Below, in pieces: positions 335 to 57,919 of a DNA stretch of 60,026 nt (position 1 is the stretch's first letter; every line of letters begins with the position of its first letter). Made by a program: the position numbers and the translations under genes. The stretch lies in sequence record PV806339.1. One strand, given 5' to 3'. The stretch is from a phage. The notes under the pieces were generated by a model, which worked only from the letters and a program-made list of their open reading frames with translations, was not told the origin of the DNA and made no database searches.

Positions 335-1810
335 ATGCACGACTATCAGGACGAAGGCGTCCAGTTCATCAAAGACCATCCGTACTGCGGCATGTTCGTA
401 GACCTCGGCTTGGGTAAGACTGTCATGACCGGGACGGCCATGCTAGACCTGATCGCGGACGGCGAAATCAACAAAGTCCTCGTCGTCGCGCCGAAGCGAG
501 TGGCCCGTACCGGGTGGCCGACGGAATTCGACGAGTGGGGGCATCTGTGCTTCTACAAGATGTCGATTATCGCCGGAAACGCCAAAGAGCGCGCAGCGGC
601 CGCGAGTAAGGACTGTCACTTCTACACGATCAGCGTGGATAACATCGCGTGGCTATGTGAGCACTTCAAGACGAAATGGCCGTTCGACGCCGTGGTGCTG
701 GACGAGTCGAGCATGTTCAAATCCCACACCTCGCAGCGCTTCAAACTGCTGCGCCGGGTGCGGAAGTACATCAAACGGATCGTCGAGTTGACGGCCACGC
801 CTGCGGCCGAAGGGTACATGGGTATCTTCTCGCAAATTTACCTGCTGGACGAAGGCGAGCGCTTTGGCTCCACCATCGGCGGTTATCAGGAAAACTACTT
901 CACGCAGAACCGCTACAACTTCAAATGGAAACTTCGCCCCGGTGCGGAAGACGAGATTATTCGGAAGATTTCTGATATATGTTTAGTCATGAAAGCGGAA
1001 GACTACCTTGACATGCACGAACCGAATTTCGTTCCTGTCCCGGTCGAGTTAGACGGGGAGACGGCCGAGCGGTACCGCATGATGGAGGAAGAGAGCCTCG
1101 TCGAGATTATGCCGGACGATTTCGATGAACATCTGGATGACCCAATCGTGATCGAAGCGGAGCAGGCCGCGTCTTTGCAGTCGAAGCTATTGCAGATGTG
1201 CTCAGGCTTCATCTACGACACGAAAATCGTTGGCATAACGCAAGACGACAAGGTCATTAAGCAGAAGGACACGTACAGGCTGCACGACCTGAAATTCGAT
1301 GCACTGGAAGAACTACTGGAAACCACGCTGGCCGATAAAAACGTGCTGATCGCCTATCACTTCAAGCCGACCCTCGAACGACTGAAAGAGCGGTTTAAAG
1401 ATCTGGTGGTCATGGATGATGACGGTAAGTGCATCAAGAAGTGGAACGCCGGAAAGATTCGACTGCTGGCCGCGCACCCTCAGTCAGCGGGACACGGTTT
1501 AAACCTCCAGCATGGCGGCCACGTCATCGTCTACATCGACAATCCGTGGTCACTCGAACGCTTCCTGCAATTCAATGGCCGATTGCACCGTCAGGGGCAG
1601 AAGTACCCGGTTACGATCTACCAGTTCAAAGCCATGCTGCGAACACCGAACGGGCTTCTGGCCGAGACGGCGGACGACGTAGTCATACAGGCGCTGGTCG
1701 AAAAGGAAGACGTGCAGGACGCGTTCTTCGAACTGCTCGAACGTATCAAAGGGCGCATCAAACGCCGCAAGAAATCGAAAAATAAAGGGGTATGGGATGA
1801 CGAAGAGTAA
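335..1810 (+). CDS. SNF2-family DNA helicase (alternative start at 251)
   Basis: Q-motif region HDYQDEGVQF, P-loop GLGKT, DESS (DExx) box, C-terminal helicase motif GLNLQHGG; ends ...VWDDEE. Confidence 0.75.
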   Translation: MHDYQDEGVQFIKDHPYCGMFVDLGLGKTVMTGTAMLDLIADGEINKVLVVAPKRVARTGWPTEFDEWGHLCFYKMSIIAGNAKERAAAASKDCHFYTISVDNIAWLCEHFKTKWPFDAVVLDESSMFKSHTSQRFKLLRRVRKYIKRIVELTATPAAEGYMGIFSQIYLLDEGERFGSTIGGYQENYFTQNRYNFKWKLRPGAEDEIIRKISDICLVMKAEDYLDMHEPNFVPVPVELDGETAERYRMMEEESLVEIMPDDFDEHLDDPIVIEAEQAASLQSKLLQMCSGFIYDTKIVGITQDDKVIKQKDTYRLHDLKFDALEELLETTLADKNVLIAYHFKPTLERLKERFKDLVVMDDDGKCIKKWNAGKIRLLAAHPQSAGHGLNLQHGGHVIVYIDNPWSLERFLQFNGRLHRQGQKYPVTIYQFKAMLRTPNGLLAETADDVVIQALVEKEDVQDAFFELLERIKGRIKRRKKSKNKGVWDDEE

Positions 1811-2366
1811 TGCGCCACTGGCAACCCGGAATCGCCGCTCTAATGCGCCGGACGCCGATACCGAAGCGATGATCTTTCAGGGCTGCAACATCACGCAACT
1901 GGCGAAGCTGTTTCGCATGGAGCGCCGGGACATCACGCCGAAAATCATGGATGTCCCGCCTGTCGGCGAGCGTGGCGGGTACCCGATCTACGCGGTTCAC
2001 GAAGTGGCCCCGTACCTCGTTAAGCCGCTGTACGATGTCGAGACGTACCTGCGCCGCATGAATTTCAAGGATCTGCCGAAGGAGTTGTCGAAAGAGTTTT
2101 GGGCCGGGCAGCGTGCAAAGCAGGACTTCGACATCAAAGCGGGAAACCTGTGGGAAACCGAGAAGGTGATCGAGCACTTCGGCGAGGCGGTGAAGGTGCT
2201 GCGCATGTCGATGTTGCTCATTCCCGACACGCTGGCGCGTCAGGCCGGACTCAGCGAGCCGCAACGTCAGGTCATCACGTCATCCATTGACGCCATGCTG
2301 AACGACCTGTCGAGCGCGCTGATCGATAAGTTCAACGGCGACGAGGTGGATGACGATGAAGTTTAA
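1797..2366 (+). CDS. putative terminase small subunit (189 aa)
   Basis: Position directly upstream of and overlapping TerL; N-terminal HTH-like segment ITQLAKLF; C-terminus ...DEVDDDEV; call by synteny only. Confidence 0.45.
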   Translation: MTKSNAPLATRNRRSNAPDADTEAMIFQGCNITQLAKLFRMERRDITPKIMDVPPVGERGGYPIYAVHEVAPYLVKPLYDVETYLRRMNFKDLPKELSKEFWAGQRAKQDFDIKAGNLWETEKVIEHFGEAVKVLRMSMLLIPDTLARQAGLSEPQRQVITSSIDAMLNDLSSALIDKFNGDEVDDDEV

Positions 2367-9257: not shown

Positions 9258-9551
9258 ATGCCAAAACGTAAAGTTCTCCAGACCGTCATCGTTTACCGCG
9301 ACGGCGCGCGTATCAAACCGTCCATCGGCGAGATCTTCGATTTCAAACAAGCCGAACTGGACAGCATCAACAAAATCAACCCGGATGCCATCGGCCGCCC
9401 GGTGATGGAAGTTGACGTTGAAAATCAGGCTGCACAGGAAGCCGCAGCGCAGCAGGCGAAAGCTGACGCGTCCAAAAAAGACGAGAAGGCTGACGGTGCT
9501 AAGAAAAACGCCAAAGACGATAAAAAGTCTGGCGCGGAAGATGAAGTCTAA
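9258..9551 (+). CDS. hypothetical protein in lambda FI position (97 aa), Lys/Ala-rich, ends ...AEDEV
   Basis: ORF after capsid gene; low-complexity KKDEKADGAKKNAKDDKK region; acidic DEV C-terminus. Confidence 0.45.
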   Translation: MPKRKVLQTVIVYRDGARIKPSIGEIFDFKQAELDSINKINPDAIGRPVMEVDVENQAAQEAAAQQAKADASKKDEKADGAKKNAKDDKKSGAEDEV

Positions 9552-11058: not shown

Positions 11059-12198
11059 ATGAACGATAACTACCAAAACAACTACGTGGTAGGTCGCGGA
11101 ACGGTCTACTTTGACCGATTCCAAGACGGCACTAACCGTAAGACGGGTGAAATGTATTTCGGTAACACGCCGGAATTCACCATCAACACCGATTCCGAAA
11201 CGCTGGATCACTACTCTTCCGATCACGGTATGCGCGTGATGGATGCGTCCGTCCTGCTGGAAGCGTCTCAGGGCGGTACCTTTACCTGTGACAACATCAA
11301 CGCGGATAACCTCGCGCTGTGGTTCCTCGGTGAAGTATCGAACACCACTCAGACGCAGCAGACCGACGCGAAAGAAGTGTTCAACCCGATCATGCGCGGC
11401 CGTTACTATCAACTCGGCACCACTGACGATAACCCGACGGGTGTTCGCAGCGTGACTAACTTCCAGATGGTCAAGGCTGACGCGTCCATCGCAATTTCCG
11501 TTGGTACAGGCGACATCACTTCTATCGTGGGTGCCACTGTCGTTAACCCGGCGGGTAACTACGAAATTGATCTGGAAGCTGGCCGTATCTACATCGAGCC
11601 GGATTCAGCCGACCTCGCGGGCAACGTGCAGATCGCGGTTCAGTACGACGTTGATGCGCAGAAACGTACGCTGGTCATCGGCAAGTCCAACATGGTGTAT
11701 GGCGCGCTGCGCATGATCTCCGATAACCCGGTGGGTCTGAACAAGAACTACTACTTCCCGAAAGTGTCCATCGCGCCGGACGGCGATTATGCACTGAAAG
11801 GCGACGACTGGCAGGTCATGTCCTTCACCTTCAAGGCCATGCAGCTTAACAACATCACGCAGCGCGTCTACATCGACATCGTCGAAGCGGCCGCAGCGGT
11901 TGACCCGACCACGCAACGCACCATCGAGATTTCGCCTGCATCGACCTCGGCCGCATCCGGTGGCGCAGGTGTCGTTTGTACGGTGACTGTCCGTGACGGC
12001 ACTGGCACAGCAGTTCAGGGCGATGCAGTGACGTTTACCACCGTTTCCGGTGCGACCGTTACGCCTAACAGCGCGACGACCGGGTCTACCGGGACGGCGA
12101 CCACCACCGTCAACCGTGCCGCCGCTGGTACCGCGACTGTCACCGCCACGCTGGCGAACGGCAAAGCGGCCACGACTGGCACCATTACCTTCTCGTAA
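11059..12198 (+). CDS. major tail protein with C-terminal bacterial Ig-like domain (379 aa)
   Basis: Position before G/GT and tape measure; Thr/Ala/Gly-rich Ig-like C-terminus (VTVRDGTGTAVQGDAVTF...TATVTATLANG) as in lambda gpV; RBS AGGAG upstream. Confidence 0.6.
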   Translation: MNDNYQNNYVVGRGTVYFDRFQDGTNRKTGEMYFGNTPEFTINTDSETLDHYSSDHGMRVMDASVLLEASQGGTFTCDNINADNLALWFLGEVSNTTQTQQTDAKEVFNPIMRGRYYQLGTTDDNPTGVRSVTNFQMVKADASIAISVGTGDITSIVGATVVNPAGNYEIDLEAGRIYIEPDSADLAGNVQIAVQYDVDAQKRTLVIGKSNMVYGALRMISDNPVGLNKNYYFPKVSIAPDGDYALKGDDWQVMSFTFKAMQLNNITQRVYIDIVEAAAAVDPTTQRTIEISPASTSAASGGAGVVCTVTVRDGTGTAVQGDAVTFTTVSGATVTPNSATTGSTGTATTTVNRAAAGTATVTATLANGKAATTGTITFS

Positions 12199-12214: not shown

Positions 12215-12240
12215 AAAGCGCCTTCGGGCGCTTTTCTTTT
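12215..12240 (+). terminator. Rho-independent terminator after major tail gene
   Basis: Stem AAGCGCC / GGCGCTT with UUCG tetraloop followed by TTTTCTTTT. Confidence 0.7.
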
Positions 12241-33342: not shown

Positions 33343-33623
33343 ATTAAGCCTCGGTTATATTCGTCCACGTATTTTTCATTTTCAGGAGATCGGTCTACCT
33401 GATTAATCTCGCTGAACTCGCAGGAAATAATATCCCCGCTAGGCAGGCGCACCCGCCAAAAAATATCCTCTTCACGCGGCCCGGTGCGTTCCCATTCGAG
33501 CACGGTTCCGTAGTATTTATGCCCGTTGAATCGGTCAGTGAAATGCACGGAGTCGCCTTTAATCGGCCAGCCCGGTTTTATCTTGGCACGGTATTTCCGT
33601 TTTATAGCCTCAACGTCGATCAT
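33339..33623 (-). CDS. hypothetical protein (94 aa)
   Basis: ORF overlapping neighbours in - strand operon. Confidence 0.45.
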   Translation of the reverse strand: MIDVEAIKRKYRAKIKPGWPIKGDSVHFTDRFNGHKYYGTVLEWERTGPREEDIFWRVRLPSGDIISCEFSEINQVDRSPENEKYVDEYNRGLI

Positions 33624-34519
33624 ACTTCATCGTCCTCGAAGTCTTCGTCAAAAAGGTCAGACTGGAACGGCTCACATGATGATGTGCAGCCATCGCCGTC
33701 GTCCGGGTTAGTGCGGGTCAGGTACAGCAGGCGCTGGCGGTCTTCCAGTCCGGCGTCGGCCATAAGCTGATCCGTGTTTCGTTTGCCACGGAACCATGTG
33801 TGGCCGTCTTCCGCTTTAACGTGGCCGTACTGGATTTCCATGTCGCGGTTCCACGTAAACCATTCAGGGTGTTCGTGGGCTATCAGGTACAGCTTTGCAT
33901 TGCTCTTTTTAAAGCAGGTCAGGCAGTTCCCGTAATGCGGCGGGATGTTCAGTTTGAACGGCATGGCATCCCAATAATCGTTCACGTCCTGCTTATCGAA
34001 ACTCCCCCAATGGCAAAGGGGGTACACCAGATTGAATTTCTTGGCCGACGCTTTGTTCGGGTCAGCCCGCTCCGGCTCGTCCGACCGCATTCCGATGGCC
34101 GTCTTGGCACTCCACCCCCGGCGCGCAAGACCATTGCTGCGCATCCAGTGGCGAATCGTCTGCGTTTTCAGATAGTCGCTGCACTTCTGGCGCGATATGT
34201 TCGGGATGCCCTCGACGCTGATCAGGCTTTCAAACGGTTCGCCCTTCCGTGCGGCCGTCTCGAAACTGACGACCCGGTGGCGCATCCCGACACCGTGTTC
34301 CGGACTGGCGTAGCCCTCCAGCCACACCAGATTCAGGCCGAAGTGTTTATCCACCTTGTCGGCGAATATCAGTGTTTCTTCGTGCTCCCGGCCAGTATTG
34401 GCGAACACGAAACGCAGGTCATATTTGTGGCCGTAATTCTCGATCAGGTATGCACAAAGAAAGCCGGACGACTGGCCGCCGGAAAAGCTGACGACAAGCG
34501 GCTCTTTGTTAGTTGGCAT
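33620..34519 (-). CDS. PAPS-reductase-like PP-loop protein (about 299 aa from Met at 34519; ORF extends to 34603)
   Basis: PP-loop VVSFSGGQSS; C-terminal Cys cluster CLTCF...GDGCTSSC; ATG at 34519 after upstream stop; ends ...FEDDEV. Confidence 0.55.
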   Translation of the reverse strand: MPTNKEPLVVSFSGGQSSGFLCAYLIENYGHKYDLRFVFANTGREHEETLIFADKVDKHFGLNLVWLEGYASPEHGVGMRHRVVSFETAARKGEPFESLISVEGIPNISRQKCSDYLKTQTIRHWMRSNGLARRGWSAKTAIGMRSDEPERADPNKASAKKFNLVYPLCHWGSFDKQDVNDYWDAMPFKLNIPPHYGNCLTCFKKSNAKLYLIAHEHPEWFTWNRDMEIQYGHVKAEDGHTWFRGKRNTDQLMADAGLEDRQRLLYLTRTNPDDGDGCTSSCEPFQSDLFDEDFEDDEV

Positions 34520-35222
34520 CGGTTGAATCCTCGCATAATGGTATGAAGTCCTTCGGGCCGTCGCCTGAACCGGGGAAGCGCCGGAAGACCATTTCGTCTT
34601 CAATGGTCAGTTTATCCTTGCTGTTCCCGCGACGATAGAAGTCGGCCATGCCGCTGCCGTACGTGCGGTCAATCCCGGCACCATACGGATCTTGCGGGCA
34701 AAGTTCCAGCGCCAGCACTTCTCGCCAGTCCGGCCGATCGATGCGGCTGACGATGCGATGGTTATTCGACACCCGGCAGTACCCCGAGGCTATCAGCGTT
34801 TCCACCAGCCGGGCCTGTTCCTTGCCACGCATCGTTTTCGCGCGCTTGACGTCCTCTTTCCTTGCCCGGGCGAAATACTCCCGCGAGAAGCGGCTACCGA
34901 CGTTCTCCGCGAAGATGCGCAGGTCTTTGATGACCATGCCCCATTTCCGTCGGCTACCTTCTTCCACGTATCGAATGGCCCCGGCGTAGCGCAGCAGCAT
35001 TGCATCGGTCAGGCGGGCATTCTTCGGGTCTTTGGCCTTCCACCAGCCGTACACTTCCACCATGCGGGCCATCGCCTTGTCGCTGTACCATAGCTCGGCG
35101 TGGCTGGTGGGCGAGTATTCCGGGTAACACTTCGCTCCGCCGTCAAACGCCCGGTAGCAGTACCAGATCCCGCCGCTGTACTGGAAGTGCGGTATCTTGT
35201 GTCGCTCTTTCATCGTAGCCAT
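34509..35222 (-). CDS. hypothetical protein (237 aa)
   Basis: ORF directly upstream of PAPS-reductase-like gene. Confidence 0.5.
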   Translation of the reverse strand: MATMKERHKIPHFQYSGGIWYCYRAFDGGAKCYPEYSPTSHAELWYSDKAMARMVEVYGWWKAKDPKNARLTDAMLLRYAGAIRYVEEGSRRKWGMVIKDLRIFAENVGSRFSREYFARARKEDVKRAKTMRGKEQARLVETLIASGYCRVSNNHRIVSRIDRPDWREVLALELCPQDPYGAGIDRTYGSGMADFYRRGNSKDKLTIEDEMVFRRFPGSGDGPKDFIPLCEDSTDAN

Positions 35223-42236: not shown

Positions 42237-43313
42237 TTAAACCTCGTCGTCGTCTTCTTCGTCGTTCAGCGTTCCGGTGTACTCGACTACCTGCCCGGCC
42301 TCGTCCAGCACGCTGATCACCGCACGCAGGGACTTATCGAGTTGGAACAGGTTAGCCATCATGGTCAGGAACTGGCCGCCGTCGGTGCCGTAGCGTTCGA
42401 GCGTGGCGTCGTAGTTCGCATCAACGTCGGCCTCGCCGATGTGGATACCGGACAGGATGGCTTTGTCGGACAGGCGGAAGTACACGGTGTCGATGCCCGG
42501 GCATTGCGTATCGACTTCGAGATCCAGCGCGCGGACAGTCCAGTGACGTGACAGCAGGTCAACCACCGACTCGTCTTTGAAGATGTCCGTGTCCTTCATC
42601 TTGACGTCGTCGCCATCGTCGTGTTTCAGGTGGATAAACGCATCGCCCTTGATGCCGTCCTGCTGGCCGAGAACCGCGCGCTGCATTAACTGGCGCAGCT
42701 CATACTCGCTCGGCAGGAGGTGTTCGACGGGCCATGTGCCGAGCGCGGTACGGATCAGCGCGCTGCACTCTTCTGCCGTCTTCGCGCTCGACGTGAACAC
42801 GTACACGAACGGGGCGGACAGGATGACGTTGACGCGGGAAGGGCGGATAGGCGCGTGTTTCAGCATTTCCGCTTCCACGTCGTCCTTCATCTGCGCCCAA
42901 TCCTTGCGGTTCGGCTCCCAACCCTCGATCTCTTTCTCCCGCAACGCGGCCATGCGCTTCACGACTTCATTTCGTACGCTGACGCCGGGCAACACACGTT
43001 CGCGCTTCTCGATCTGGAAGACGATGGCGTTTGTTCCGGGGATGGCGAGGGCGAATTTACTTTCAACCTCTTCGCCGTACGCTGCAAAGCCCATTGTCTT
43101 GTAAGACGCCTCCGGCGGATCTGACACTTCATGCTTTTCGAGTGCATCGCTAAACGCTCCTTTCGCGAAAGCCGTTACGGCCTCTTCGTCAACGTTCGGC
43201 AGGTTCAGGATCAGGCGGTGCAGCGGCTTGACCTTCTCGTTACCGTCGTTGGCCGCGTCATACAGCGCGCCGAGGTGCAAGATAATGGCTTTCTCATAAC
43301 CCTTGATTTTCAT
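42237..43313 (-). CDS. recombination-associated RdgC-like protein (358 aa), ends ...EEDDDEV
   Basis: Length and several colinear segments resemble RdgC (e.g. ALGTWPVEHLLPSEYEL); identification tentative. Confidence 0.4.
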   Translation of the reverse strand: MKIKGYEKAIILHLGALYDAANDGNEKVKPLHRLILNLPNVDEEAVTAFAKGAFSDALEKHEVSDPPEASYKTMGFAAYGEEVESKFALAIPGTNAIVFQIEKRERVLPGVSVRNEVVKRMAALREKEIEGWEPNRKDWAQMKDDVEAEMLKHAPIRPSRVNVILSAPFVYVFTSSAKTAEECSALIRTALGTWPVEHLLPSEYELRQLMQRAVLGQQDGIKGDAFIHLKHDDGDDVKMKDTDIFKDESVVDLLSRHWTVRALDLEVDTQCPGIDTVYFRLSDKAILSGIHIGEADVDANYDATLERYGTDGGQFLTMMANLFQLDKSLRAVISVLDEAGQVVEYTGTLNDEEDDDEV

Positions 43314-44455: not shown

Positions 44456-44827
44456 TTAAACTTCGTCGTCGTCCGAAACGTCGGTGTCAGTACAGGTCAC
44501 AACGGCCTGAATGAACATGCGGCCAGACGGGTAAGTCACCAGCGCGGATTCCATGCTGAACCGTTGGCCGTGGTGTTTCATGGCGTTCCGGATGGAAGAA
44601 TTAAGGCTGGCCCGCATCTTCGCTTTGAGGGCATTGGCCTCGTCCTGTACCTGCGAAAGCGTACGGTCAAGCGGGAGTTCTTGGGACAGGGTGTACACGC
44701 CACCGACTTCCAGCGCAATGAGGTTCCCCACGACGCTGTACACGCGCACGCGTGACGGCAGTTCAACATCCGGCTCGGTCGTCATCATTGCGCCAGTCAG
44801 TTCGGCCGGGCTTAGTTCTTTGCTCAT
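44456..44827 (-). CDS. hypothetical protein (123 aa), ends ...VSDDDEV
   Basis: First gene of - strand early operon; GGAG RBS; promoter upstream. Confidence 0.5.
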   Translation of the reverse strand: MSKELSPAELTGAMMTTEPDVELPSRVRVYSVVGNLIALEVGGVYTLSQELPLDRTLSQVQDEANALKAKMRASLNSSIRNAMKHHGQRFSMESALVTYPSGRMFIQAVVTCTDTDVSDDDEV

Positions 44828-52024: not shown

Positions 52025-54610
52025 CTAAACTTCGTCTTCATCGTCAAACGGGTCTGGCTTTTTGCCGACCAGTTTTTCGACTTCTGCGTCATGCCGTTTT
52101 AACGTAGTCTGCACCCACGACGAGTTAAGTTTCCCCGCGTCGTCGAATGCCCCTTTGACCCGCTTCCTGACATAAACGCGGCCAGATTCGCCGCCAAATT
52201 TGACCACGCCGCCCGGCTTGAAGCCCAATTCCATAAGCATGTTTTTCAGGCGGTTCGTCTTCGGCATTTCCACGTCTGTCATTTCGAGGAATGCGTTTTT
52301 CAGGGACGGCACGAAGATGACGTCGCGGTGTACGCCCGGCGTCGTTCCGTCACGAAGCATTTGTGCGATTGCGCCTTCCACGCCATCGTCAGACGCGTCG
52401 GCCATGACCGCGAATGCTTCGGTGTCCTGCGGTGCGTGTCCTTTGGCATCGAAATCCTTTCCGATCTCCCAATCGAGGAACCACTTTTTGATAGCAGGTG
52501 CGTGGTTTTCGATTGCCCGGTACACGTTTTTGAAGAAGCGCGCGCGTTCAGTCTTCGACCCGTAAACCCGCTCCATGTCCAGATGATTTTCTGCCTGCGT
52601 GGACACCACCAGATAACGACGCTGGTTTTCATCGAGTGGCAATGCGTTGAAGTGGTTGGTGAACATCATTTTGCTGCTGGTGTTCACGACTTCCTTCGGC
52701 TTGCGGCCCTTTGGCTCAATCTGGAAGCGATCGTTTGTGATGAATTCCTTCTGGCGTTCCACCGCGCTGTACCGATCGCCTTTGTCGTAGATCTCTTCCA
52801 CGATTTTCAGGATGTGGCCCTCGGCCCAATCGCTGAAACGGCCATTCATCACGGTGTTTGACACATAGCCCACGTTCGACGCGCCGAGCATCCGCGACAT
52901 GATGATGCCGAGCGTCGTTTTACCAGAACCATGCGCACCACGGATCAGAAGCGAGTAGTTGATGCGTTTCGTTGGGTGCTGAATAACCCACGCCATCCAG
53001 TCCAGAACATAGCGGCGTTCCTTCTCGTTCGGGAAAAGCACGATGAAGAAGTCTTTGATGATCTCCAGCGCCTTTTTGTCGTACGGAGAAAGGTCAGTCG
53101 CGGCCTCCGGAATGGATTCAGGGTCAAAAGAGTTCAGCCACGTACGCCCACGGTCGTCAATAAAGAATTCCGGCCCGATCACCCCCTCTTTCGGCTTCCA
53201 CACAGATTCCGGCATGTCACCGTGCATCGCCGGGTAGTACATCGCGTCCCAAACGATAGGAACCGGGCGGACTACCGACGCATAGTGGACAGGCTTGAAG
53301 GCTTCTTCCTCAAACACGCATTTTTTCGCAAAAGCGACGTCGAAAGCGCCTTTTGTGATGTAATCGCCCGTGGTTTTTTCGATAAAACTGTCATTTGCCT
53401 TCGAGAAAACGAAGTTTTTCAGCCACTGCGGAGTCTCTTTTGACCCGTAATCGAAGCCCAAAAGCTCCCTTTTGTCACCAGCAGTGAGGCGGAAGTTGTT
53501 GATCCTGCGGTATGCTTCGGCCGCAATCTGGACGATGGCCTTGCGGGTAAGCCCGAAAATCTGCGCTTTTTTGAATGATTCGGCCCACGCATTCCAGTCA
53601 TTCGCCTCGGTACACTCGGCGAAAGCCTCGCGGTACTCGATGGCGCGTTCTTCCTGCTCGGCTTTCTCGATGTCCTGCACTTCTTTGATGATGGTGCCGA
53701 GCGTGATCAGTCGAGTCGAGTTGTGCGCGAAGCCCTTATCCCACTTGTATTCGAAATCACCTTCGTCGAAGTTGTGTGCCTGCATGGCCCATTCGCGGGC
53801 AATGGCCTTCGCCTCGTCCTGATCGCGGCAGGAAATTTGCAGCGCGGCCAGTACGGTGATGTAGTTCTCGTAATCTTCCGGGTTCGGGTATTTCAGGACG
53901 ATGTCGCGCAGTTCATCGTACGTGCCGTCCCACTTTTTGACGTCAGACAGCGCGGCCCAATCGTCATCGTCTGCCGAACCGATAGACTCATAACCGTTCA
54001 TTGGCCGTTTGACCATTGTCCAGCCCAAGTCCTTCGCGTATCGGTCGAATTCGGCGGCGATCTCGCGAGCGGTATCGAGGCTGATCTCTTCGAGGTCAAG
54101 GTCGGCGGCGTTGTTCAGCGGATTCTCGCCATCAATCCAGTAATAGTCGCGCTTGGTGTCCGGGTGGATACCGTACGCAACGAACTGCTGGCCGTCGGCG
54201 AGGATTTCAACTGCATGGCGCTGGCCGAAGTCGTCTTCCCACACGCCGGATTTCACTTTGGCGAACGGGTTTTCGGTTCGGTACAGGTAGAGTTTCTTCG
54301 GCTCCCGGCCGATACGACATGGCGCTGCACCGACGTTCTCGGCGATCCAGTCTGCCATGTGCGCCACGGCGTCTTCATCGTAAACGTCGATGTCAACCGC
54401 CGGGGTGTATTTGGTCAGAATCCCGATGCCGTTATTCGTATAGCGTTTCGCCCAACGCTGGATCTGCTCCTTATCATTGATTGTTCGTTCCCAATCTTCA
54501 CCGATAGGGCGTTTGCCCGCACCCTTCTTATCGGCGTCCGGGGCGTAGATAGGTACGATGGTGTACCCATTCCCCCAAAGCGTTTCGCCGTACTCTTGCC
54601 AGTAGTTCAT
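52025..54610 (-). CDS. bifunctional DNA primase-polymerase / SF3 (D5/P4-type) helicase (861 aa), ends ...DDEDEV
   Basis: N-terminal prim-pol-like region (GIGILTKYTPAVDIDVYD); C-terminal Walker A LIRGAHGSGKTTLG. Confidence 0.7.
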   Translation of the reverse strand: MNYWQEYGETLWGNGYTIVPIYAPDADKKGAGKRPIGEDWERTINDKEQIQRWAKRYTNNGIGILTKYTPAVDIDVYDEDAVAHMADWIAENVGAAPCRIGREPKKLYLYRTENPFAKVKSGVWEDDFGQRHAVEILADGQQFVAYGIHPDTKRDYYWIDGENPLNNAADLDLEEISLDTAREIAAEFDRYAKDLGWTMVKRPMNGYESIGSADDDDWAALSDVKKWDGTYDELRDIVLKYPNPEDYENYITVLAALQISCRDQDEAKAIAREWAMQAHNFDEGDFEYKWDKGFAHNSTRLITLGTIIKEVQDIEKAEQEERAIEYREAFAECTEANDWNAWAESFKKAQIFGLTRKAIVQIAAEAYRRINNFRLTAGDKRELLGFDYGSKETPQWLKNFVFSKANDSFIEKTTGDYITKGAFDVAFAKKCVFEEEAFKPVHYASVVRPVPIVWDAMYYPAMHGDMPESVWKPKEGVIGPEFFIDDRGRTWLNSFDPESIPEAATDLSPYDKKALEIIKDFFIVLFPNEKERRYVLDWMAWVIQHPTKRINYSLLIRGAHGSGKTTLGIIMSRMLGASNVGYVSNTVMNGRFSDWAEGHILKIVEEIYDKGDRYSAVERQKEFITNDRFQIEPKGRKPKEVVNTSSKMMFTNHFNALPLDENQRRYLVVSTQAENHLDMERVYGSKTERARFFKNVYRAIENHAPAIKKWFLDWEIGKDFDAKGHAPQDTEAFAVMADASDDGVEGAIAQMLRDGTTPGVHRDVIFVPSLKNAFLEMTDVEMPKTNRLKNMLMELGFKPGGVVKFGGESGRVYVRKRVKGAFDDAGKLNSSWVQTTLKRHDAEVEKLVGKKPDPFDDEDEV

Positions 54611-54888
54611 TCAAGGATTTCCCCTGTTTCGCTGTCCGTTTTGATCCATGAAGGGTTAGTCAGCCAATGCGGACGGATGCCGCAGTGAGGGACAGCTTTG
54701 CAAACTTTTTCGGCCACGCTGCTCGTTACGTTGTTCTGCACGGCCCATAACAATGTCGGGTAACTGATCTTCGCTGCCTTCGCCAGTTCGGCCATTCTGG
54801 CGTTCGGGTCTACCTCCAAAGCCGCTTGCATCATGAGAAATTTGACCCGCATCCGGTCGTCGTTTAAAGCCCAATCTGGAAATCGCAT
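54607..54888 (-). CDS. small HTH-like protein (93 aa), upstream of primase
   Basis: HTH-like MAELAKAAKISYPTLLWAVQ; ATGA overlap with primase start. Confidence 0.45.
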   Translation of the reverse strand: MRFPDWALNDDRMRVKFLMMQAALEVDPNARMAELAKAAKISYPTLLWAVQNNVTSSVAEKVCKAVPHCGIRPHWLTNPSWIKTDSETGEILE

Positions 54889-54930
54889 AGTGATGCCCTC
54901 GCGTAATGTGCGCGTGTTATAGATTTGCGG

Positions 54931-54959
54931 ATATTATATCCGGGCTTGACATCTGTCAA
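54931..54959 (-). promoter_or_regulatory. sigma70-like promoter for primase operon (- strand)
   Basis: On - strand: TTGACA, 17-nt spacer GATGTCAAGCCCGGATA, -10 TAATAT; -35 lies within palindrome TTGACATCTGTCAA. Confidence 0.5.
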
Positions 54960-55048
54960 GTTGGCCAGTTATTCGGGTACCAAAGGCGCTTTATGTCCGG
55001 AAAACAAAGGGCTTGCGGTACCCGAATAAAAAATTTCTAAAAAAGTGT

Positions 55049-55078
55049 TTGACAGTGATTCGGCGTTTGGGCCATACT
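55049..55078 (+). promoter_or_regulatory. sigma70-like promoter for + strand replication genes
   Basis: TTGACA (55049-55054), 18-nt spacer, -10 CATACT (55073-55078). Confidence 0.5.
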
Positions 55079-55130
55079 TCATCCCGTCAACACGACACGA
55101 CCTTTTAAACACTTAACGGAGTAGAAAATT

Positions 55131-55547
55131 ATGTCTGGTATCTTCGAACAACTGCTGGCTGAACAACAAAAAACCAACACCCTGCTGGAAGGCGTTCTGG
55201 CAGCACTGAAAGGCGGCGCGGTGAACACTTCCGCTGACGCTGGTAGCGAAACTACTGAAAAAACCACCACCACCAAAGGCGGTGCTAAGGGCGGCGCGAA
55301 AGGCGGTGCAGGTAAAACCGAAACTAAAGCGGTCAAGCCTAAACACACCAAAGACGAAGTAGTCGCGGCTGTCGTTGCGGTTAAAGACGCGTTCGGCGCG
55401 CCGGAAGCCAAGAAAATCACCGCACACTTCGGCCTCGCCAAAGTCGCGGAAGCGAAGGAAGAACACTTCGACGAAATCGTCGAAATGTGTGAAGCCAAAC
55501 TGGCTGAAAAAGATGAAGGCGGTAACGGCGAAGAAGACGACGTTTAA
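55131..55547 (+). CDS. hypothetical Lys/Ala/Gly-rich protein (138 aa), ends ...GEEDDV
   Basis: RBS GGAG; KGGAKGGAKGGAGK repeat; flanked by promoter and terminator. Confidence 0.55.
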   Translation: MSGIFEQLLAEQQKTNTLLEGVLAALKGGAVNTSADAGSETTEKTTTTKGGAKGGAKGGAGKTETKAVKPKHTKDEVVAAVVAVKDAFGAPEAKKITAHFGLAKVAEAKEEHFDEIVEMCEAKLAEKDEGGNGEEDDV

Positions 55548-55562
55548 TCTTTCGCCCCGCAT

Positions 55563-55587
55563 CGGCTCCCTTCGGGGGGCCGTTTTT
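55563..55587 (+). terminator. Rho-independent terminator with UUCG tetraloop
   Basis: Stem CGGCTCCC / GGGGGCCG, loop TTCG, then TTTTT. Confidence 0.65.
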
Positions 55588-55608
55588 CACACCAACGGAG
55601 AGGCAATT

Positions 55609-55938
55609 GTGACCAGCATTACTTTCACCAACGTAGCAACATCCGGCGGCGCAGTTCTCGCGCGCACTTGGGCGGAGTTTCGTTTTCAAATCGGTGATCG
55701 CGATGTGCTGTTCAGAGTTACTTCACCTGTTTCGAAACACGAAGCGCCGCTGCTCGTAACCCATGCTGCATCGGGCTATCGAGTGTGCGACGTCTGGTGG
55801 GACGACGTGGCGAAGACTCGCTTTAACGCAGGCCGCAATAATTACAGCGGGGCAGGCGCTAGGGCATTGGTAGCGACGATTGAGCGAGTCGGCGAACACC
55901 GATTCCTCAATGCGATAAAGGCGTATCCGAATGAGTAG
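55609..55938 (+). CDS. hypothetical protein (109 aa; GTG start within ORF 55375..55938)
   Basis: RBS ACGGAGAGG before GTG at 55609. Confidence 0.4.
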   Translation: MTSITFTNVATSGGAVLARTWAEFRFQIGDRDVLFRVTSPVSKHEAPLLVTHAASGYRVCDVWWDDVAKTRFNAGRNNYSGAGARALVATIERVGEHRFLNAIKAYPNE

Positions 55939-57268
55939 TAAGTCACTGTTAGTCCGCATCATGCGGGAATTCGGCGGTGGCGGCCACTCAATCTTCGCGC
56001 CTTCTGCGTCAGCGCGTTGGATCGCATGTTCTGGAAGCCTGATAGCCGGGCTTTTCGAGCATGACGAAACCATCTACGAGGCGGCGGAAGGCACGGTGGC
56101 CCACGGAATCGCCGAACAATGGCTGCGAACGGATGTCCGGCCAACCCATTTAATCGGTACGGTCGAGACGATCACGGAAGGCGGTGTCAGCCATGACATC
56201 CCCATTACTCGGTCAATGCTCGACTCGGTTCAGGAGTACGTTGACTGGTGCCGATTTGAAGAGGGTGAAATGTTCACGGAAATCCGGGTCTGGTTTACCG
56301 ACCTGATGCCGCGAGCGAACCCGGATGAACCTGACGAAGACCCGATCGAGTTTGTCGCTCAGGGCGGAACGGCGGATAATATCATCATCCGCGACCGAAC
56401 CTTGATCGTGACCGACCTGAAATACGGGACTGGCGTTCAGGTTTTCGCGGAAGGGAACCCGCAGGCGCTACTTTACGCGTACGGTGCGTACCGCGCTTTC
56501 TCGGATGAATACGAGTTTGACCGTATTGTCATCCGGATCGCGCAGCCGAGGCTCGACCATTTCGATACGTGGGAAATCACGATTGACGAATTGTTAGAGT
56601 TCGCGGAGTATGCCCGGGAGCGAATTGCAGCGGCATGGAGCCTTACCGCGCCGCGCCGCGCATCCCTGAAAGGGTGTCGCTTTTGCCGGGCAGCACATAA
56701 CTGCGCAGCGATAGCGTACATGATGGAATGCGCAGTGGGCGGGGACGTGGAATTCCTTGAAGCTGAATTCGGGGAGGAAGAAATGTCAGTATTGCGTGAT
56801 GCGCTGGCGCAGGAATATAAGTTCCGGCGTGCGCAGTTCGGAAACCTGACAACCGAGCAGATGGCGAAGATCCTGCCATACCGCAAGGTGGTCGAAAACT
56901 GGTTCTCGCGCCTTGACTTCGAACTGGAACGCCGCGCAATGAACGGCGAGAAGGTACCGGGTCAAAAGCTGGTGGAGTCGCGGACAAACCGTAAATTCGC
57001 CAACGAGAAAGATGCGATCGCGCTGTTCCGGTTCCTCGATATTGACGAGGACAAGTACATCGAACGCAAACTGCGTACCCCGGCGCAGATGGAAGAAGTG
57101 CTTAGGGATGAATTGGGCGTGTCCCGGGCTGGCGCGCCGAACATCATCGCGGGGATCGTCTACAAGCCGGAAGGCAAGCCGACACTGGCACCGCTGACCG
57201 ATAAGCGGCCACCACTGGACGGCAAGTATTCCGGGGCGTGGGACGACGAAGATGATGACGAAGTGTAA
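55931..57268 (+). CDS. PD-(D/E)xK exonuclease, Cas4/RecB-like with Cys cluster (DUF2800-like, 445 aa), ends ...DDEDDDEV
   Basis: Nuclease motif region IVTDLKYG; N-terminal Cys (WIACSG) plus C-terminal CRFCRAAHNC; position before SSB and DNA polymerase. Confidence 0.55.
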   Translation: MSSKSLLVRIMREFGGGGHSIFAPSASARWIACSGSLIAGLFEHDETIYEAAEGTVAHGIAEQWLRTDVRPTHLIGTVETITEGGVSHDIPITRSMLDSVQEYVDWCRFEEGEMFTEIRVWFTDLMPRANPDEPDEDPIEFVAQGGTADNIIIRDRTLIVTDLKYGTGVQVFAEGNPQALLYAYGAYRAFSDEYEFDRIVIRIAQPRLDHFDTWEITIDELLEFAEYARERIAAAWSLTAPRRASLKGCRFCRAAHNCAAIAYMMECAVGGDVEFLEAEFGEEEMSVLRDALAQEYKFRRAQFGNLTTEQMAKILPYRKVVENWFSRLDFELERRAMNGEKVPGQKLVESRTNRKFANEKDAIALFRFLDIDEDKYIERKLRTPAQMEEVLRDELGVSRAGAPNIIAGIVYKPEGKPTLAPLTDKRPPLDGKYSGAWDDEDDDEV

Positions 57269-57322: not shown

Positions 57323-57919
57323 ATGGCCGAGAAATTAGTCCCTGCGAAAAAAGTCAAGAATGGCGTGCTGTACAAATCTGGTCACATCAAGATTTCTAAC
57401 GTACGTGCTTCTTACCCGCACCTCGATAAGCCGTACGGCGGTGAAGACGGCGGCGAGCCGAAATACTCGCTGACGCTTTTGATGCCGAAAGACAGCCACG
57501 GCGAGATCGAGAAAATCATCCGTGAGCAGATCGAAGTCACCAAGAAGAACCACAAGACAGGCGCGCTGAAAGTCGCCCCGTCCATGTTGTTCATCAAAGA
57601 CGGTGATACCGATTTTCCGGATAAACCGGAATGCGAAGGGATGTGGGTTATCTCCGCACGCGAAAGCAAACGCCCGGATGTGTATAACATCGAGCGCGAA
57701 GAGTTGACTACCTCTTCCGAAATTCTGGAAGAGATCTACGGTGGTTGTTGGGTGTCGGTTGTCATCCGTCCGTGGTCGCAGGAAAACAAATTCGGCAAAC
57801 GCGTTAACGCCAACCTGATTTCCGTTCTGAAACGCAAAGACGACGAGCCGTTCGGTGAAGGTCGTGTGGACACGTCCGACGCGTGGGATGAAGACGAAGA
57901 TTGGGAAGACGAAGTGTAA
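57323..57919 (+). CDS. single-stranded DNA-binding protein, T7 gp2.5-like (DUF2815-like, 198 aa), ends ...EDWEDEV
   Basis: ASYPHLDKPY and F.KDGD motifs colinear with T7 gp2.5; acidic C-terminal tail. Confidence 0.65.
   Translation: MAEKLVPAKKVKNGVLYKSGHIKISNVRASYPHLDKPYGGEDGGEPKYSLTLLMPKDSHGEIEKIIREQIEVTKKNHKTGALKVAPSMLFIKDGDTDFPDKPECEGMWVISARESKRPDVYNIEREELTTSSEILEEIYGGCWVSVVIRPWSQENKFGKRVNANLISVLKRKDDEPFGEGRVDTSDAWDEDEDWEDEV

What the first reader, a model, noticed from the sequence alone, without database searches (positions are those of the whole stretch)
55049..55587. Monocistronic unit encoding a low-complexity Lys/Ala/Gly-rich protein with acidic V-terminated tail
A sigma70 promoter (55049-55078), strong RBS, a 138-aa ORF with KGGAKGGAKGGAGK repeats and C-terminal GNGEEDDV, then a UUCG-tetraloop terminator (55563-55587) make a self-contained, probably highly expressed early unit. 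Candidate roles: nucleoid-associated or DNA-binding host-takeover protein, or a competitor for the DEV-tail docking site.
Basis: partly seen in the sequence, partly recalled or inferred. Interest (0 to 1): 0.45.

Follow-up and report, generated by a model that had tools for sequence, protein, structure and literature searches.

The report
Abundant early replication-module protein, SSB-like tail
This is gene 4 of a Chi-like Salmonella/E. coli phage: a real, probably very highly expressed small protein of unknown function. It always sits at the head of the phage's DNA-replication genes, and its acidic tail ends in the same phage-specific tip as the tails of the phage's DNA-binding and replication proteins.

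Summary
The promoter (55049-55078), GGAG ribosome-binding site, 138-aa ORF (55131-55547) and UUCG hairpin terminator (55563-55587) are all present. Promoter and terminator recur at the same positions in diverged relatives.

The window is a whole Chi-like phage genome (Chivirus), and the ORF is Chi gp4, annotated "hypothetical" (phrog_7721). It has no Pfam, NCBIfam or PDB relative.

It belongs to a large family: 290 representatives at 50% identity, with a fixed plan. That plan is an N-terminal helix, a variable basic A/K/T/G linker, a three-helix core, and an acidic tail ending in one hydrophobic residue. The KGGA repeats are not conserved.

Codon optimality is the highest in the genome. The unit is probably not strictly monocistronic, because no other strong sigma70 match precedes the downstream replication genes. 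The terminator therefore looks like an attenuator.

gp4 homologues sit between the primase operon and the exonuclease-SSB genes across deep divergence, even where the polymerase family has been swapped.

Nine of about 77 proteins in the window end in [DE][DE]V (0.08 expected). The gp4 tip covaries with the SSB tip across phages.

Best reading: an abundant accessory protein of the SSB-centred replication/recombination machinery that shares the SSB-tail docking site. The whole protein is acidic, so a nucleoid-protein role is poorly supported. Biochemical function is untested.

The parts
54969..55029 (.). Inverted repeat with 24-nt arms (83% complementary), containing GGTACC. It lies between the divergent promoters and is a candidate operator.
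   Evidence: I1. The GGTACC-containing right arm is conserved upstream of the promoter in most of the diverged lineages. Function not tested.
54931..54959 (-). Divergent sigma70-like promoter (TTGACA-17-TAATAT) for the leftward regulator (gp3) and primase (gp2) operon.
   Evidence: Gene identities.
55025..55044 (+). A/T-rich UP-element-like tract immediately upstream of the -35 hexamer.
   Evidence: Sequence. An equivalent A/T tract is present in all 13 lineages compared. Its role as an UP element is an inference.
55049..55078 (+). Sigma70-type promoter: TTGACA (55049-55054), 18-nt spacer, CATACT (55073-55078).
   Evidence: 10/12. It is one of only three >=10/12 matches on the + strand of the 60-kb window. 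Its position is conserved in 13 diverged lineages.
55085..55096 (+). Conserved 5'-UTR motif CGTCAACACGAC. It is partly palindromic with GTGTTTGAC, which overlaps the -35. Candidate operator half-site.
   Evidence: identical or near-identical in the window, L012, L015, L019, L003, L004, L033 and L034. Function not tested.
55118..55121 (+). Shine-Dalgarno GGAG, 9 nt upstream of the ATG, in an unstructured initiation region.
55131..55547 (+). Coding sequence of the 138-aa protein (Chi gp4 orthologue; phrog_7721), including the TAA stop.
   Evidence: Region 54600-56000, which contains the gene, is 100% identical in DNA to phage Utah and phage SeWh-1. The Chi record annotates it as CHI_4. phrog_7721 match E=1.7e-69. 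Third-position substitution bias.
55140..55214 (+). N-terminal amphipathic helix, residues 4-28 (MSGIFEQLLAEQQKTNTLLEGVLAAL).
   Evidence: AlphaFold2 with the 71-sequence alignment gives mean pLDDT of 87, 95 and 77 for residue blocks 1-10, 11-20 and 21-30. Conserved across the family.
55215..55334 (+). Disordered basic linker rich in T/K/G/A, residues 29-68. It holds the KGGA repeats (12-nt DNA repeat at 55275-55306).
   Evidence: pLDDT below 50. Variable in length and sequence. Net charge of residues 29-73 is +4. Family linker composition is A 25%, K 18%, T 17%, G 9%, P 7.5%, with RGRP cores in 7 of 150 homologues. Tandem repeat.
55335..55508 (+). Conserved core, residues 69-126: the KPKHTKDE motif plus three helices. 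The model with the deeper alignment places them at 74-88, 90-99 and 113-131, so the third runs a few residues into the tail region.
   Evidence: Most columns are invariant in 28 homologues. pLDDT 88-92. No significant match in Pfam, PDB sequences or PDB folds.
55509..55544 (+). Acidic C-terminal tail, residues 127-138 (KDEGGNGEEDDV), ending in a single hydrophobic residue.
   Evidence: N-x-EEDDV is nearly invariant in Chi-like homologues. 144 of the 150 representatives listed end in L, I, M or V. The tip covaries with the SSB tip.
55563..55587 (+). Intrinsic terminator or attenuator: 8-bp G+C-rich stem, UUCG loop and T5 run.
   Evidence: Equivalent hairpins with compensated stems follow the homologous gene in many lineages. 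Read-through is inferred from the absence of other strong sigma70 matches downstream.

Best explanation
The unit encodes Chi gp4, a genuine and probably very abundant early protein. It is a conserved accessory component of the phage's SSB-centred replication/recombination module.

Transcription starts at a conserved host-type promoter. A hairpin terminator just after the gene most likely stops part of the transcripts, so gp4 is made in excess over the downstream exonuclease, SSB and polymerase genes.

The protein has four parts:
- An N-terminal amphipathic helix, inferred to mediate self-association or partner binding.
- A disordered, basic, histone-H1-like linker, inferred to give weak non-specific DNA contact.
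- A small three-helix core with no known relative.
- An acidic tail ending in valine.

The tail carries the same phage-specific tip as the tails of the SSB, primase, two exonucleases, small terminase and others. I infer that it plugs into the same receptor as the SSB tail. The most likely receptor is the groove of the phage SSB itself, with the replisome less likely.

Because gp4 is probably the most abundant tail-bearer, it would act as an adaptor or buffer. It would either tether that receptor to DNA through the basic linker or modulate access of the other tail-bearing proteins.

Shown here: the anatomy, conservation, synteny, expression signals and tail covariation. Inferred: DNA contact, the identity of the receptor, and the adaptor or competitor action.
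For: - Identity and family: 100% DNA identity to Chi-like phages over 54600-56000. Annotated CHI_4. phrog_7721 at E=1.7e-69. 290 clusters at 50% identity, nearly all 105-145 aa with one architecture.
- Expression: the promoter is conserved in 13 lineages. Fop of 0.78 is the highest in the genome. The initiation region is unstructured. The terminator is conserved with compensated stems.
- No other >=10/12 sigma70 match lies on the + strand downstream.
- A similar UUCG terminator follows the high-Fop major tail gene at 12215-12234.
- Synteny: primase(-), regulator(-), then gp4(+), exonuclease(+), SSB(+) is kept down to about 33% SSB identity. The gap between gp4 and the exonuclease is often 0-70 nt.
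- The gp4 homologue and the tails persist where PolA is replaced by a different polymerase family, phrog_1252. Polymerase swapping in Casjensviridae is reported in PMC11348598.
- Tail network: nine of about 77 proteins end in [DE][DE]V, against 0.08 expected.
- Tips are lineage-specific (V; I; L; GGL; LV) and are shared by primase, gp4, exonuclease, SSB and TerS.
- The gp4 tip matches the SSB tip in 18 of 29 dereplicated loci against 7.5 expected. No permutation of 20,000 reached the observed value.
- Receptor precedents: in the Enc34 (Chi-like) SSB crystal the acidic C-terminus docks in the concave beta-sheet groove of a neighbouring SSB, burying 842 A2 (PMC5686142).
- In T7 the acidic tails of gp4 and gp2.5 compete for basic patches on the polymerase (bioRxiv 10.64898/2026.05.20.726333).
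- Linker: A/K/T/G/P-rich, net +4, with RGRP cores in 7 of 150 homologues.
Against: - There is no experimental datum on gp4 in any phage. Searches for the tail motif and for the replication module found nothing on gp4 or on a shared tail. An earlier search for Chivirus transcriptomics was also unproductive.
- Covariation is partly phylogenetic inertia. The gp4 tip disagrees with the SSB tip in several lineages: I against L in L035, L040, L048, L049 and L054; M against L in L042; V against I in L041 and L047.
- Distant homologues (L075, L078, L084) lack the tail altogether, so the tail is not the family's core function.
- Tail-bearers include proteins outside replication: TerS, a 97-aa head-module protein and a PAPS-reductase-like protein. 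The common receptor may therefore not be a replisome component.
- Late or phage-specific promoters would not be seen by the sigma70 scan, so the need for read-through is not proven.
Confidence: 0.45

Rival explanations
1. Pure decoy or regulator. gp4 has no DNA-related activity of its own. It is an abundant SSB-tail mimic that titrates the common docking site. That would delay or balance recruitment of primase, exonucleases and terminase, or keep free SSB from self-associating until ssDNA appears.
For: - Highest codon optimality in the genome, and a promoter-proximal position followed by an attenuator.
- The tail tip covaries with the SSB tip.
- In T7 the tails of gp4 and gp2.5 compete for one site.
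- The SSB tail docks on a neighbouring SSB in the Enc34 crystal.
Against: - A decoy would need only a tail. The family instead conserves an N-terminal helix and a 55-aa core much more strongly than the tail.
- Tail-less homologues exist.
Confidence: 0.15
2. Accessory factor of the exonuclease/annealing recombination pair. gp4 works specifically with the Cas4-like (DUF2800) exonuclease and the gp2.5-type SSB/annealase. It would be a loading or mediator factor for recombination-dependent replication, analogous in position to the first gene of lambda's gam-bet-exo operon.
For: - The gp4 homologue lies 0-70 nt upstream of the exonuclease in most lineages, and the gp4-exonuclease-SSB trio survives polymerase swaps.
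- phrog_112 describes the SSB family as also ssDNA-annealing.
Against: - hhalign gives 0.3% probability against the Red-beta C-terminal domain and 0.1% against lambda Gam.
- In Chi-like phages a terminator and an extra gene (gp5) separate gp4 from the exonuclease.
Confidence: 0.15
3. Host-directed early protein: a nucleoid-associated or host-takeover factor, or an anti-defence DNA or SSB mimic. It would be made first and in bulk, like T7 Ocr, and would act on host proteins rather than on the phage replisome.
For: - It is the first gene of an early, host-promoter-driven operon with bulk-expression signals.
- It is acidic overall.
- It has an H1-like linker, and a few homologues carry AT-hook cores.
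Against: - Net -7 with a family median pI of 4.84 argues against a nucleoid-coating protein.
- Conserved synteny inside the replication module holds across many diverged phage lineages.
- The tail tip tracks the phage's own SSB and varies between phage lineages. By my own knowledge, the host SSB tip is nearly invariant among bacteria, so a varying tip points to a phage-encoded partner.
- There is no uniformly acidic folded surface of the Ocr type. The core carries net -5, but the linker is basic.
Confidence: 0.1
4. Transcription regulator in the Cro position. gp4 would be a small DNA-binding protein acting on the palindromes around the divergent promoters to time early transcription.
For: - It is the first gene of the rightward operon, next to a 24-nt-arm inverted repeat and a conserved 5'-UTR motif.
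- It has a three-helix core.
Against: - No helix-turn-helix or any DNA-binding family is detected.
- The core is acidic, net -5.
- Dedicated regulators (gp3 and gp1, an HTH protein) are encoded next door.
- A regulator does not need the top codon optimality in the genome or an SSB-like tail.
Confidence: 0.05

Closest known systems
Acidic C-terminal tails of phage T7 gp2.5 (SSB) and gp4 (primase-helicase)
   Same: Disordered acidic tails ending in one hydrophobic residue are carried by more than one replication protein of the same phage and compete for one docking surface (PMC5686142). Here the SSB is itself a gp2.5/Enc34-type protein.
   Different: T7 has two tail-bearers that end in Phe and dock on PolA/thioredoxin. 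Here nine proteins end in Val, including a small non-enzymatic protein (gp4), TerS and a head-module protein. The set persists when PolA is replaced by another polymerase family. No binding has been measured.
Enc34 ORF6 SSB (crystal structure, Chi-like phage)
   Same: It belongs to the same phage group; the Enc34 locus L015 has an SSB 88% identical to the window's. Its acidic tail docks in the concave beta-sheet groove of a neighbouring SSB molecule. That gives a concrete candidate receptor for tails of this type.
   Different: gp4 is not an OB-fold protein and has no detectable relation to the SSB. Only the tail is shared. The last 11 residues, including the tip, were not visible in that structure.
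Bacterial SSB C-terminal tip (DDDIPF) interaction hub
   Same: An acidic run plus a hydrophobic C-terminus serves as a portable docking peptide for many DNA-metabolism proteins (own knowledge; one search lists the literature).
   Different: The direction is inverted. In bacteria one protein (SSB) carries the tip and many partners carry pockets. Here many proteins carry the tip. The IPF motif is absent.
Lambda Red-beta C-terminal domain (three-helix bundle that binds lambda Exo and the SSB tail peptide)
   Different: There is no sequence or profile similarity: hhalign 0.3%. There is no RecT domain, and the fold score is in the non-specific range. This is a resemblance only.
Histone H1 C-terminal domain / HMGB-type architecture (basic low-complexity region plus acidic tail)
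   Same: An A/K/T/P-rich disordered basic segment is combined with an acidic tail in one chain. In HMGB1 such a tail folds back on the basic part (own knowledge).
   Different: The whole protein is acidic. The basic segment is short (about 45 aa, net +4) and poorly conserved in sequence. DNA binding is untested.
Promoter-proximal gene followed by a leaky terminator (for example lambda cro-tR1; attenuators after abundant structural genes)
   Same: Promoter, a small first gene, a hairpin terminator, then essential downstream genes without a promoter match of their own. The same UUCG-type terminator follows the major tail gene.
   Different: No antiterminator is identified, and termination efficiency is unknown.

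Membership tests
phrog_7721 (Chi gp4-like proteins, unknown function) | Full-length match to the family profile | tested here: met
   E=1.7e-69, residues 1-138 on profile positions 1-138 of 138. The Chi record annotates the orthologue as CHI_4.
T7-type acidic-tail docking (gp2.5/gp4 kind) | Disordered acidic C-terminal segment ending in a hydrophobic residue | tested here: met
   KDEGGNGEEDDV, net -5, with the last five residues below pLDDT 50. 144 of 150 family representatives end in L, I, M or V.
T7-type acidic-tail docking (gp2.5/gp4 kind) | The same tail type is carried by the SSB and other replication proteins of the same phage | tested here: met
   Primase, Cas4-like exonuclease, SSB and others end in D[DE]V. 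The gp4 and SSB tips covary across phages.
T7-type acidic-tail docking (gp2.5/gp4 kind) | The tail binds a defined receptor (a polymerase basic patch or the SSB groove), and its loss impairs replication | not testable with these tools
   No complex prediction or experiment is available. Indirect evidence only: the Enc34 crystal contact and persistence through polymerase swaps.
Bacterial SSB-Ct mimic | Terminal D-D-D-I-P-F or closely similar IPF tip | tested here: not met
   The tail ends EEDDV. Family tips are DDI, DGL, DDL, DDM and the like.
RecT/Red-beta single-strand annealing proteins (annotation in some public records) | RecT domain (Pfam PF03837) and a length of about 250-350 aa | tested here: not met
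   No Pfam family at E<=0.01, and none consistently among 71 members at E<=1. The protein is 138 aa. hhalign against the Red-beta C-terminal domain gives 0.3%.
Nucleoid-associated / histone-like DNA-binding proteins | Net basic protein with a recognised DNA-binding fold or repeated AT-hook or H1-like motifs | tested here: not met
   Net -7 and pI 5.0, with a family median pI of 4.84. No DNA-binding family is detected. Only the 45-aa linker is basic. RGRP cores occur in 7 of 150 homologues, not in this protein.
Ocr-like DNA-mimic anti-restriction proteins | A folded, uniformly acidic surface that imitates DNA | tested here: inconclusive
Lambda Gam-type nuclease inhibitors | Sequence or profile similarity to Gam | tested here: not met
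   hhalign probability 0.1%.
Ribosomal protein L7/L12-like (similar composition and helix-hinge-domain plan) | Profile similarity to L7/L12 | tested here: not met
   hhalign probability 2.6%.
Rho-independent terminator | G+C-rich hairpin directly followed by a U-run, downstream of a stop codon | tested here: met
   8-bp stem with 7 G-C pairs, UUCG loop and T5. MFE -17.4 kcal/mol. Conserved with compensated stems in relatives. Termination efficiency was not measured.
Sigma70-dependent promoter | -35 and -10 hexamers at 16-18 nt spacing, upstream of a gene, conserved in relatives | tested here: met
   10/12 match. Conserved position and hexamers in 13 lineages. The transcription start was not mapped.

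The most novel reading that the evidence does not exclude
gp4 is the abundant organiser of a 'C-terminal zip-code' network. Each phage of this group would mark its DNA-handling proteins with one phage-specific acidic tip. The marked proteins here are the SSB, primase, two exonucleases, a DNA-modification enzyme, the small terminase, a head-module protein and gp4. gp4 would combine an oligomerising helix, a disordered DNA-binding linker, a conserved core and the same tip. In that way it would scaffold a replication-to-packaging factory, possibly a condensate, that concentrates all tip-bearing clients on phage DNA. Tip divergence between phages (V, I, L, GGL, LV) would then keep co-infecting relatives' machineries apart.
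Probability: 0.12. Interest if true: 0.85.

Novelty: new variant of a known kind. Interest (0 to 1): 0.55.

Why it matters
The gene belongs to a large, completely uncharacterised phage protein family. That family heads the replication operon in Chi-like and many related siphoviruses, and it appears to be among the most highly expressed phage genes.

The tail evidence extends the T7 idea of acidic tails competing for one docking site. T7 has two such proteins. Here a genome-wide, lineage-specific code is carried by about nine proteins, reaching from replication into DNA modification and packaging. The searches run here found no description of this.

If gp4 turns out to be an adaptor, a buffer or a scaffold for that network, three things would follow:
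- A new accessory component of phage replisomes would be defined.
- The tolerance of these modules to polymerase swapping would be explained.
- A simple handle, a 5-10 residue peptide, would be available for probing or disrupting phage replication.

If it turns out to be dispensable, it remains an ordinary conserved hypothetical gene with a well-defined expression cassette.

Tried and rejected
- Family and structure searches gave no function. There were no hits in Pfam for the single protein or for 71 family members, in NCBIfam, or in PDB sequences by profile. Foldseek against PDB had no hit at E<=0.001.
- The 'RecT protein' label in some public records was rejected: there is no RecT domain, and hhalign against the Red-beta C-terminal domain gives 0.3%.
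- Lambda Gam (0.1%) and ribosomal L7/L12 (2.6%) were rejected as relatives.
- I considered whether the D-E-V ending is a by-product of a Shine-Dalgarno sequence for a downstream coupled gene. This was rejected by reading the sequence. The gp4 tail codons (GAA GAA GAC GAC GTT TAA) contain no GGAG-like run and are followed by a terminator, not a coupled gene. In addition, tips such as GGL or DDI covary at the protein level.
- gp4 as the receptor for all the tails is made unlikely. SSB, exonuclease and primase share tail tips in lineages where no gp4 homologue was detected.
- PolA as the conserved receptor, or gp4 as a PolA-specific processivity factor, is weakened. The gp4 homologue and the tails persist with a different polymerase family.
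- Pattern-based locus retrieval failed or gave few loci with the broad family alignment and with single distant members. It was replaced by retrieval through the SSB.
- Literature searches for Chivirus transcriptomics and for the tail motif found nothing relevant.
Full report
**What the window is.** The region 54600-56000 is 100% identical to Escherichia phage Utah and Salmonella phages SeWh-1 and SeZq-1, and about 96% identical to phage Chi. The window is therefore a Chi-like siphovirus (Chivirus, Casjensviridae). The 60,026 bases look like one complete, rotated genome. The DNA polymerase ORF ends at 60025, and the window restarts with the endonuclease, helicase and terminase genes.

The ORF at 55131-55547 is the orthologue of Chi gene 4, annotated 'hypothetical protein'. 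Its neighbours are:
- To the left and divergent: a small regulator (gp3) and a Prim-Pol/D5-type primase-helicase (gp2).
- To the right: gp5, a DUF2800/Cas4-like exonuclease, an Enc34/gp2.5-type SSB, and DNA polymerase A.

**Check of the observation.**
- Promoter: TTGACA-18-CATACT at 55049-55078, 10/12.
- Ribosome-binding site: GGAG, 9 nt before the ATG.
- ORF: 138 aa, with KGGAKGGAKGGAGK and C-terminal GNGEEDDV.
- Repeat: a 12-nt DNA tandem repeat underlies the KGGA units.
- Terminator: an 8-bp G+C stem with a UUCG loop and a T5 run at 55563-55587.

A consensus match alone proves little, so I used comparison with relatives. In 13 diverged lineages the homologous gene is preceded, 78-85 nt upstream, by TTGAC(A/G/T) and a -10 hexamer at 16-18 nt. 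Each also has an A/T-rich tract and usually a GGTACC-containing motif upstream, and a conserved CGTCAACACGAC-like motif downstream.

A hairpin plus T-run follows the homologous stop codon in many lineages with different stem sequences. Examples are CGGCTCCC/GGGGGCCG here, GGCGGCTC/GAGCCGCC in L016, AGGCCCG/CGGGCCT in L003 and CGGCCCC/GGGGCCG in the Klebsiella phages.

The + frame is the real one. Substitutions among relatives fall 85:15:15 on codon positions 3:1:2. The two longer antisense ORFs have ordinary or poor codon usage.

**Expression.** Using the classical E. coli optimal-codon set (my own knowledge of that set), gp4 has Fop 0.78. The mean for 76 genes of the window is 0.52 with sd 0.08, and the next best are 0.73 and 0.68, the latter being the SSB. 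The initiation region is less structured than shuffled controls. These signals support 'highly expressed, early'.

'Monocistronic' is doubtful. My scan and the tool's scans find no other >=10/12 sigma70 match on the + strand from 55078 through gp5, exonuclease, SSB, polymerase, helicase and terminase. The 9/12 matches are no more frequent than in shuffles. The terminator is therefore best read as an attenuator that raises gp4 output relative to the downstream genes. The same kind of UUCG terminator follows the high-Fop major tail gene at 12215-12234. Promoters of other types would escape this scan, so this is an inference.

**The protein and its family.** No Pfam, NCBIfam or PDB-sequence relative exists. 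The word-index search found 161 close relatives. Those on long contigs sit on roughly 59-kb Chi-like genomes. A profile search of 1.84 billion representatives found 290 clusters, nearly all 105-145 aa.

They share one plan:
- An N-terminal amphipathic helix.
- A variable low-complexity linker ending in KPKHT(K/R)(D/E)E.
- A core of about 55 aa.
- An acidic tail ending in one hydrophobic residue. Among the 150 representatives listed the last residue is L in 80, I in 49, M in 12 and V in 3.

With the deeper alignment AlphaFold2 gives confident helices at 4-28, 74-88, 90-99 and 113-131 (pLDDT 87-95), and a disordered linker and tail.

The KGGA repeats sit in the linker, which varies in length and sequence even among Chi-like phages. 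The repeat itself is therefore not a conserved feature, although its composition is. Family linkers are A 25%, K 18%, T 17%, G 9% and P 7.5%, and 7 of 150 carry RGRP AT-hook cores.

The whole protein is acidic: net -7, pI 5.0, family median pI 4.84. The charge is split as linker +4, core -5 and tail -5.

**Genomic context across phages.** I retrieved 80 viral loci through the SSB, plus six through gp4 relatives. I located homologues of the window's genes with HMMER.

The order primase(-), regulator(-), then gp4(+), exonuclease(+), SSB(+), polymerase(+) and TerS(+) is kept down to about 33% SSB identity. In most non-Chi lineages gp4 lies 0-70 nt upstream of the exonuclease. Chi-like phages have gp5 inserted there.

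Several loci have no PolA. Four that I checked carry a different polymerase family (phrog_1252) at the same place, yet keep the gp4 homologue, the exonuclease and the SSB. This fits the repeated PolA/PolB swaps reported for Casjensviridae (PMC11348598). The function of gp4 is thus tied to the exonuclease-SSB-primase core rather than to a particular polymerase.

**The tail.** In the window nine proteins end in [DE][DE]V, against 0.08 expected from composition:
- small terminase (TerS)
- a 97-aa protein encoded next to the major head gene
- a PAPS-reductase-like protein
- a recombination exonuclease
- a 123-aa protein of unknown function
- the primase
- gp4
- the Cas4-like exonuclease
- the SSB

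Across phages the tip is lineage-specific and shared within a genome. It is D[DE]V in Chi-likes, D[DE]L in L026, L027 and L061, and D[DE]I in L032 and L036. It is GGL, NGL or EGL in L071, L073, L077 and L083, and LV or LI in L006 and L007.

The gp4 tip follows the SSB tip. After dereplication at 70% SSB identity, 18 of 29 last residues match against 7.5 expected, and no permutation of 20,000 reached that value. For the last two residues the figures are 9 against 3.2, p=0.0008. Telling pairs are GSLV/DGLV, DALV/DDLV, NGGL/MGGL, GSGL/DSGL and EDLA/DDVA.

The permutation ignores phylogeny, and there are real exceptions with I or M against L and V against I. The signal is therefore strong but not a proof of a single shared pocket. 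Distant family members lack the tail, and tail sharing between SSB, exonuclease and primase exists in lineages without a detectable gp4 homologue. The tail is thus an add-on that connects gp4 to a wider network, and gp4 is unlikely to be that network's receptor.

**Mechanism.** Two precedents bear on the receptor.
- In T7 the acidic tails of the helicase and the SSB compete for basic patches on the polymerase.
- In the crystal of the Enc34 SSB, from a Chi-like phage, the acidic C-terminus lies in the concave beta-sheet groove of the neighbouring SSB and buries 842 A2 (PMC5686142).

The gp4 homologue and the tails survive polymerase replacement, so I favour the SSB as receptor, or another conserved non-polymerase partner.

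I therefore commit to this reading. gp4 is an abundant early accessory protein of the SSB-centred replication/recombination machinery. Its basic linker gives weak DNA contact. Its helix and core mediate self-association or partner binding. Its tail occupies the SSB-tail docking site, so it acts as an adaptor or buffer within the tail network.

My confidence is about 0.45 for this reading as a whole. It is much higher, about 0.9, for the statements that this is a real, highly expressed, conserved replication-module gene.

The rivals are scored in their own section of this report: a pure decoy, an exonuclease/annealase mediator, a host-directed factor, and a Cro-like regulator.

**Novelty and score.** The gene is known only as a hypothetical ORF. 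The docking principle is known from T7 and bacterial SSBs. What is new is a dedicated small protein family using it, and the breadth of the tail code. I found no description of either in the searchable literature.

I rate it a new variant of a known kind, with interest 0.55. It is held down because no function is demonstrated and the fold is uninformative.

Noticed in passing
window 1797-2366, 9258-9551, 33620-34603, 42237-43313, 44456-44827, 52025-54610, 55131-55547, 55931-57268, 57323-57919; also L003-L087: Nine proteins of this genome end in [DE][DE]V, against 0.08 expected. They are TerS, a 97-aa head-module protein, a PAPS-reductase-like protein, a recombination exonuclease, a 123-aa unknown, the primase, gp4, the Cas4-like exonuclease and the SSB. 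In related phages the same set of proteins shares a different, lineage-specific tip (I, L, GGL, LV). The DNA polymerase never carries it.
   Followed up: partly
window 54969-55029: An inverted repeat with 24-nt arms (83% complementary, containing GGTACC) lies exactly between the divergent early promoters. The GGTACC arm is conserved in most of the distant relatives compared. It could be an operator or an origin-related element.
   Followed up: partly
window 55085-55096 and 55045-55054: The 5'-UTR motif CGTCAACACGAC is conserved across very diverged lineages. It is an imperfect inverted copy of GTGTTTGAC, which overlaps the -35 hexamer, so the two flank the core promoter like paired operator half-sites.
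   Followed up: no
window 9258-9551: A 97-aa ORF directly after the major head gene has a K/A/D-rich disordered C-terminal half ending in EDEV. Its codon optimality (Fop 0.73) is second only to gp4. Function unknown (phrog_7559).
   Followed up: partly
window 12215-12234: A second UUCG-tetraloop terminator (AAAGCGCC UUCG GGCGCUUU plus a T-run) lies directly after the major tail protein gene (11059-12198), inside the long + strand structural operon. This is the same 'abundant product then attenuator' layout as after gp4.
   Followed up: no
window 55113-55562 (-) and 55079-55498 (-): Two antisense ORFs of 149 and 139 aa overlap gp4 and are longer than it. Codon usage and the third-position substitution pattern show they are not coding. 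A longest-ORF gene caller would mis-annotate this locus.
   Followed up: yes
window 55609-55938: gp5 (109 aa, GTG start, phrog_8318, unknown function) is an insertion specific to Chi-like phages, between gp4 and the exonuclease. In most other lineages the exonuclease follows the gp4 homologue within 0-70 nt.
   Followed up: partly
public records of gp4 homologues (e.g. NC_029045, MF415413, MN106244): Several GenBank and UniRef records name this protein 'RecT protein'. Nothing supports that: there is no RecT domain, the protein is 138 aa, and hhalign against the Red-beta C-terminal domain gives 0.3%. It looks like a propagated misannotation.
   Followed up: yes
L040, L042, L048, L059 (and other loci with no PolA match): These related phages carry a different DNA polymerase family (phrog_1252) in the slot that PolA occupies in Chi. 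The gp4 homologue, exonuclease, SSB, primase and their tails are unchanged. In L040, L048 and L050 that polymerase ends in an acidic run without a hydrophobic tip.
   Followed up: partly
L075:4919-5278, L078:3185-3484, L084:7240-7686: Distant members of the gp4 family keep the N-terminal helix, linker and three-helix core but stop right after the last helix, with no acidic tail. The SSBs of the same loci still have acidic tails.
   Followed up: no
L072 and L082: In two lineages the gp4 homologue and the SSB share unusual endings: EDLA with DDVA, and RRSLV with RRDVV. The SSB ORFs there are unusually long (306-320 aa). This may be an alternative tail type or a start or frame problem in my ORF calls.
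   Followed up: no
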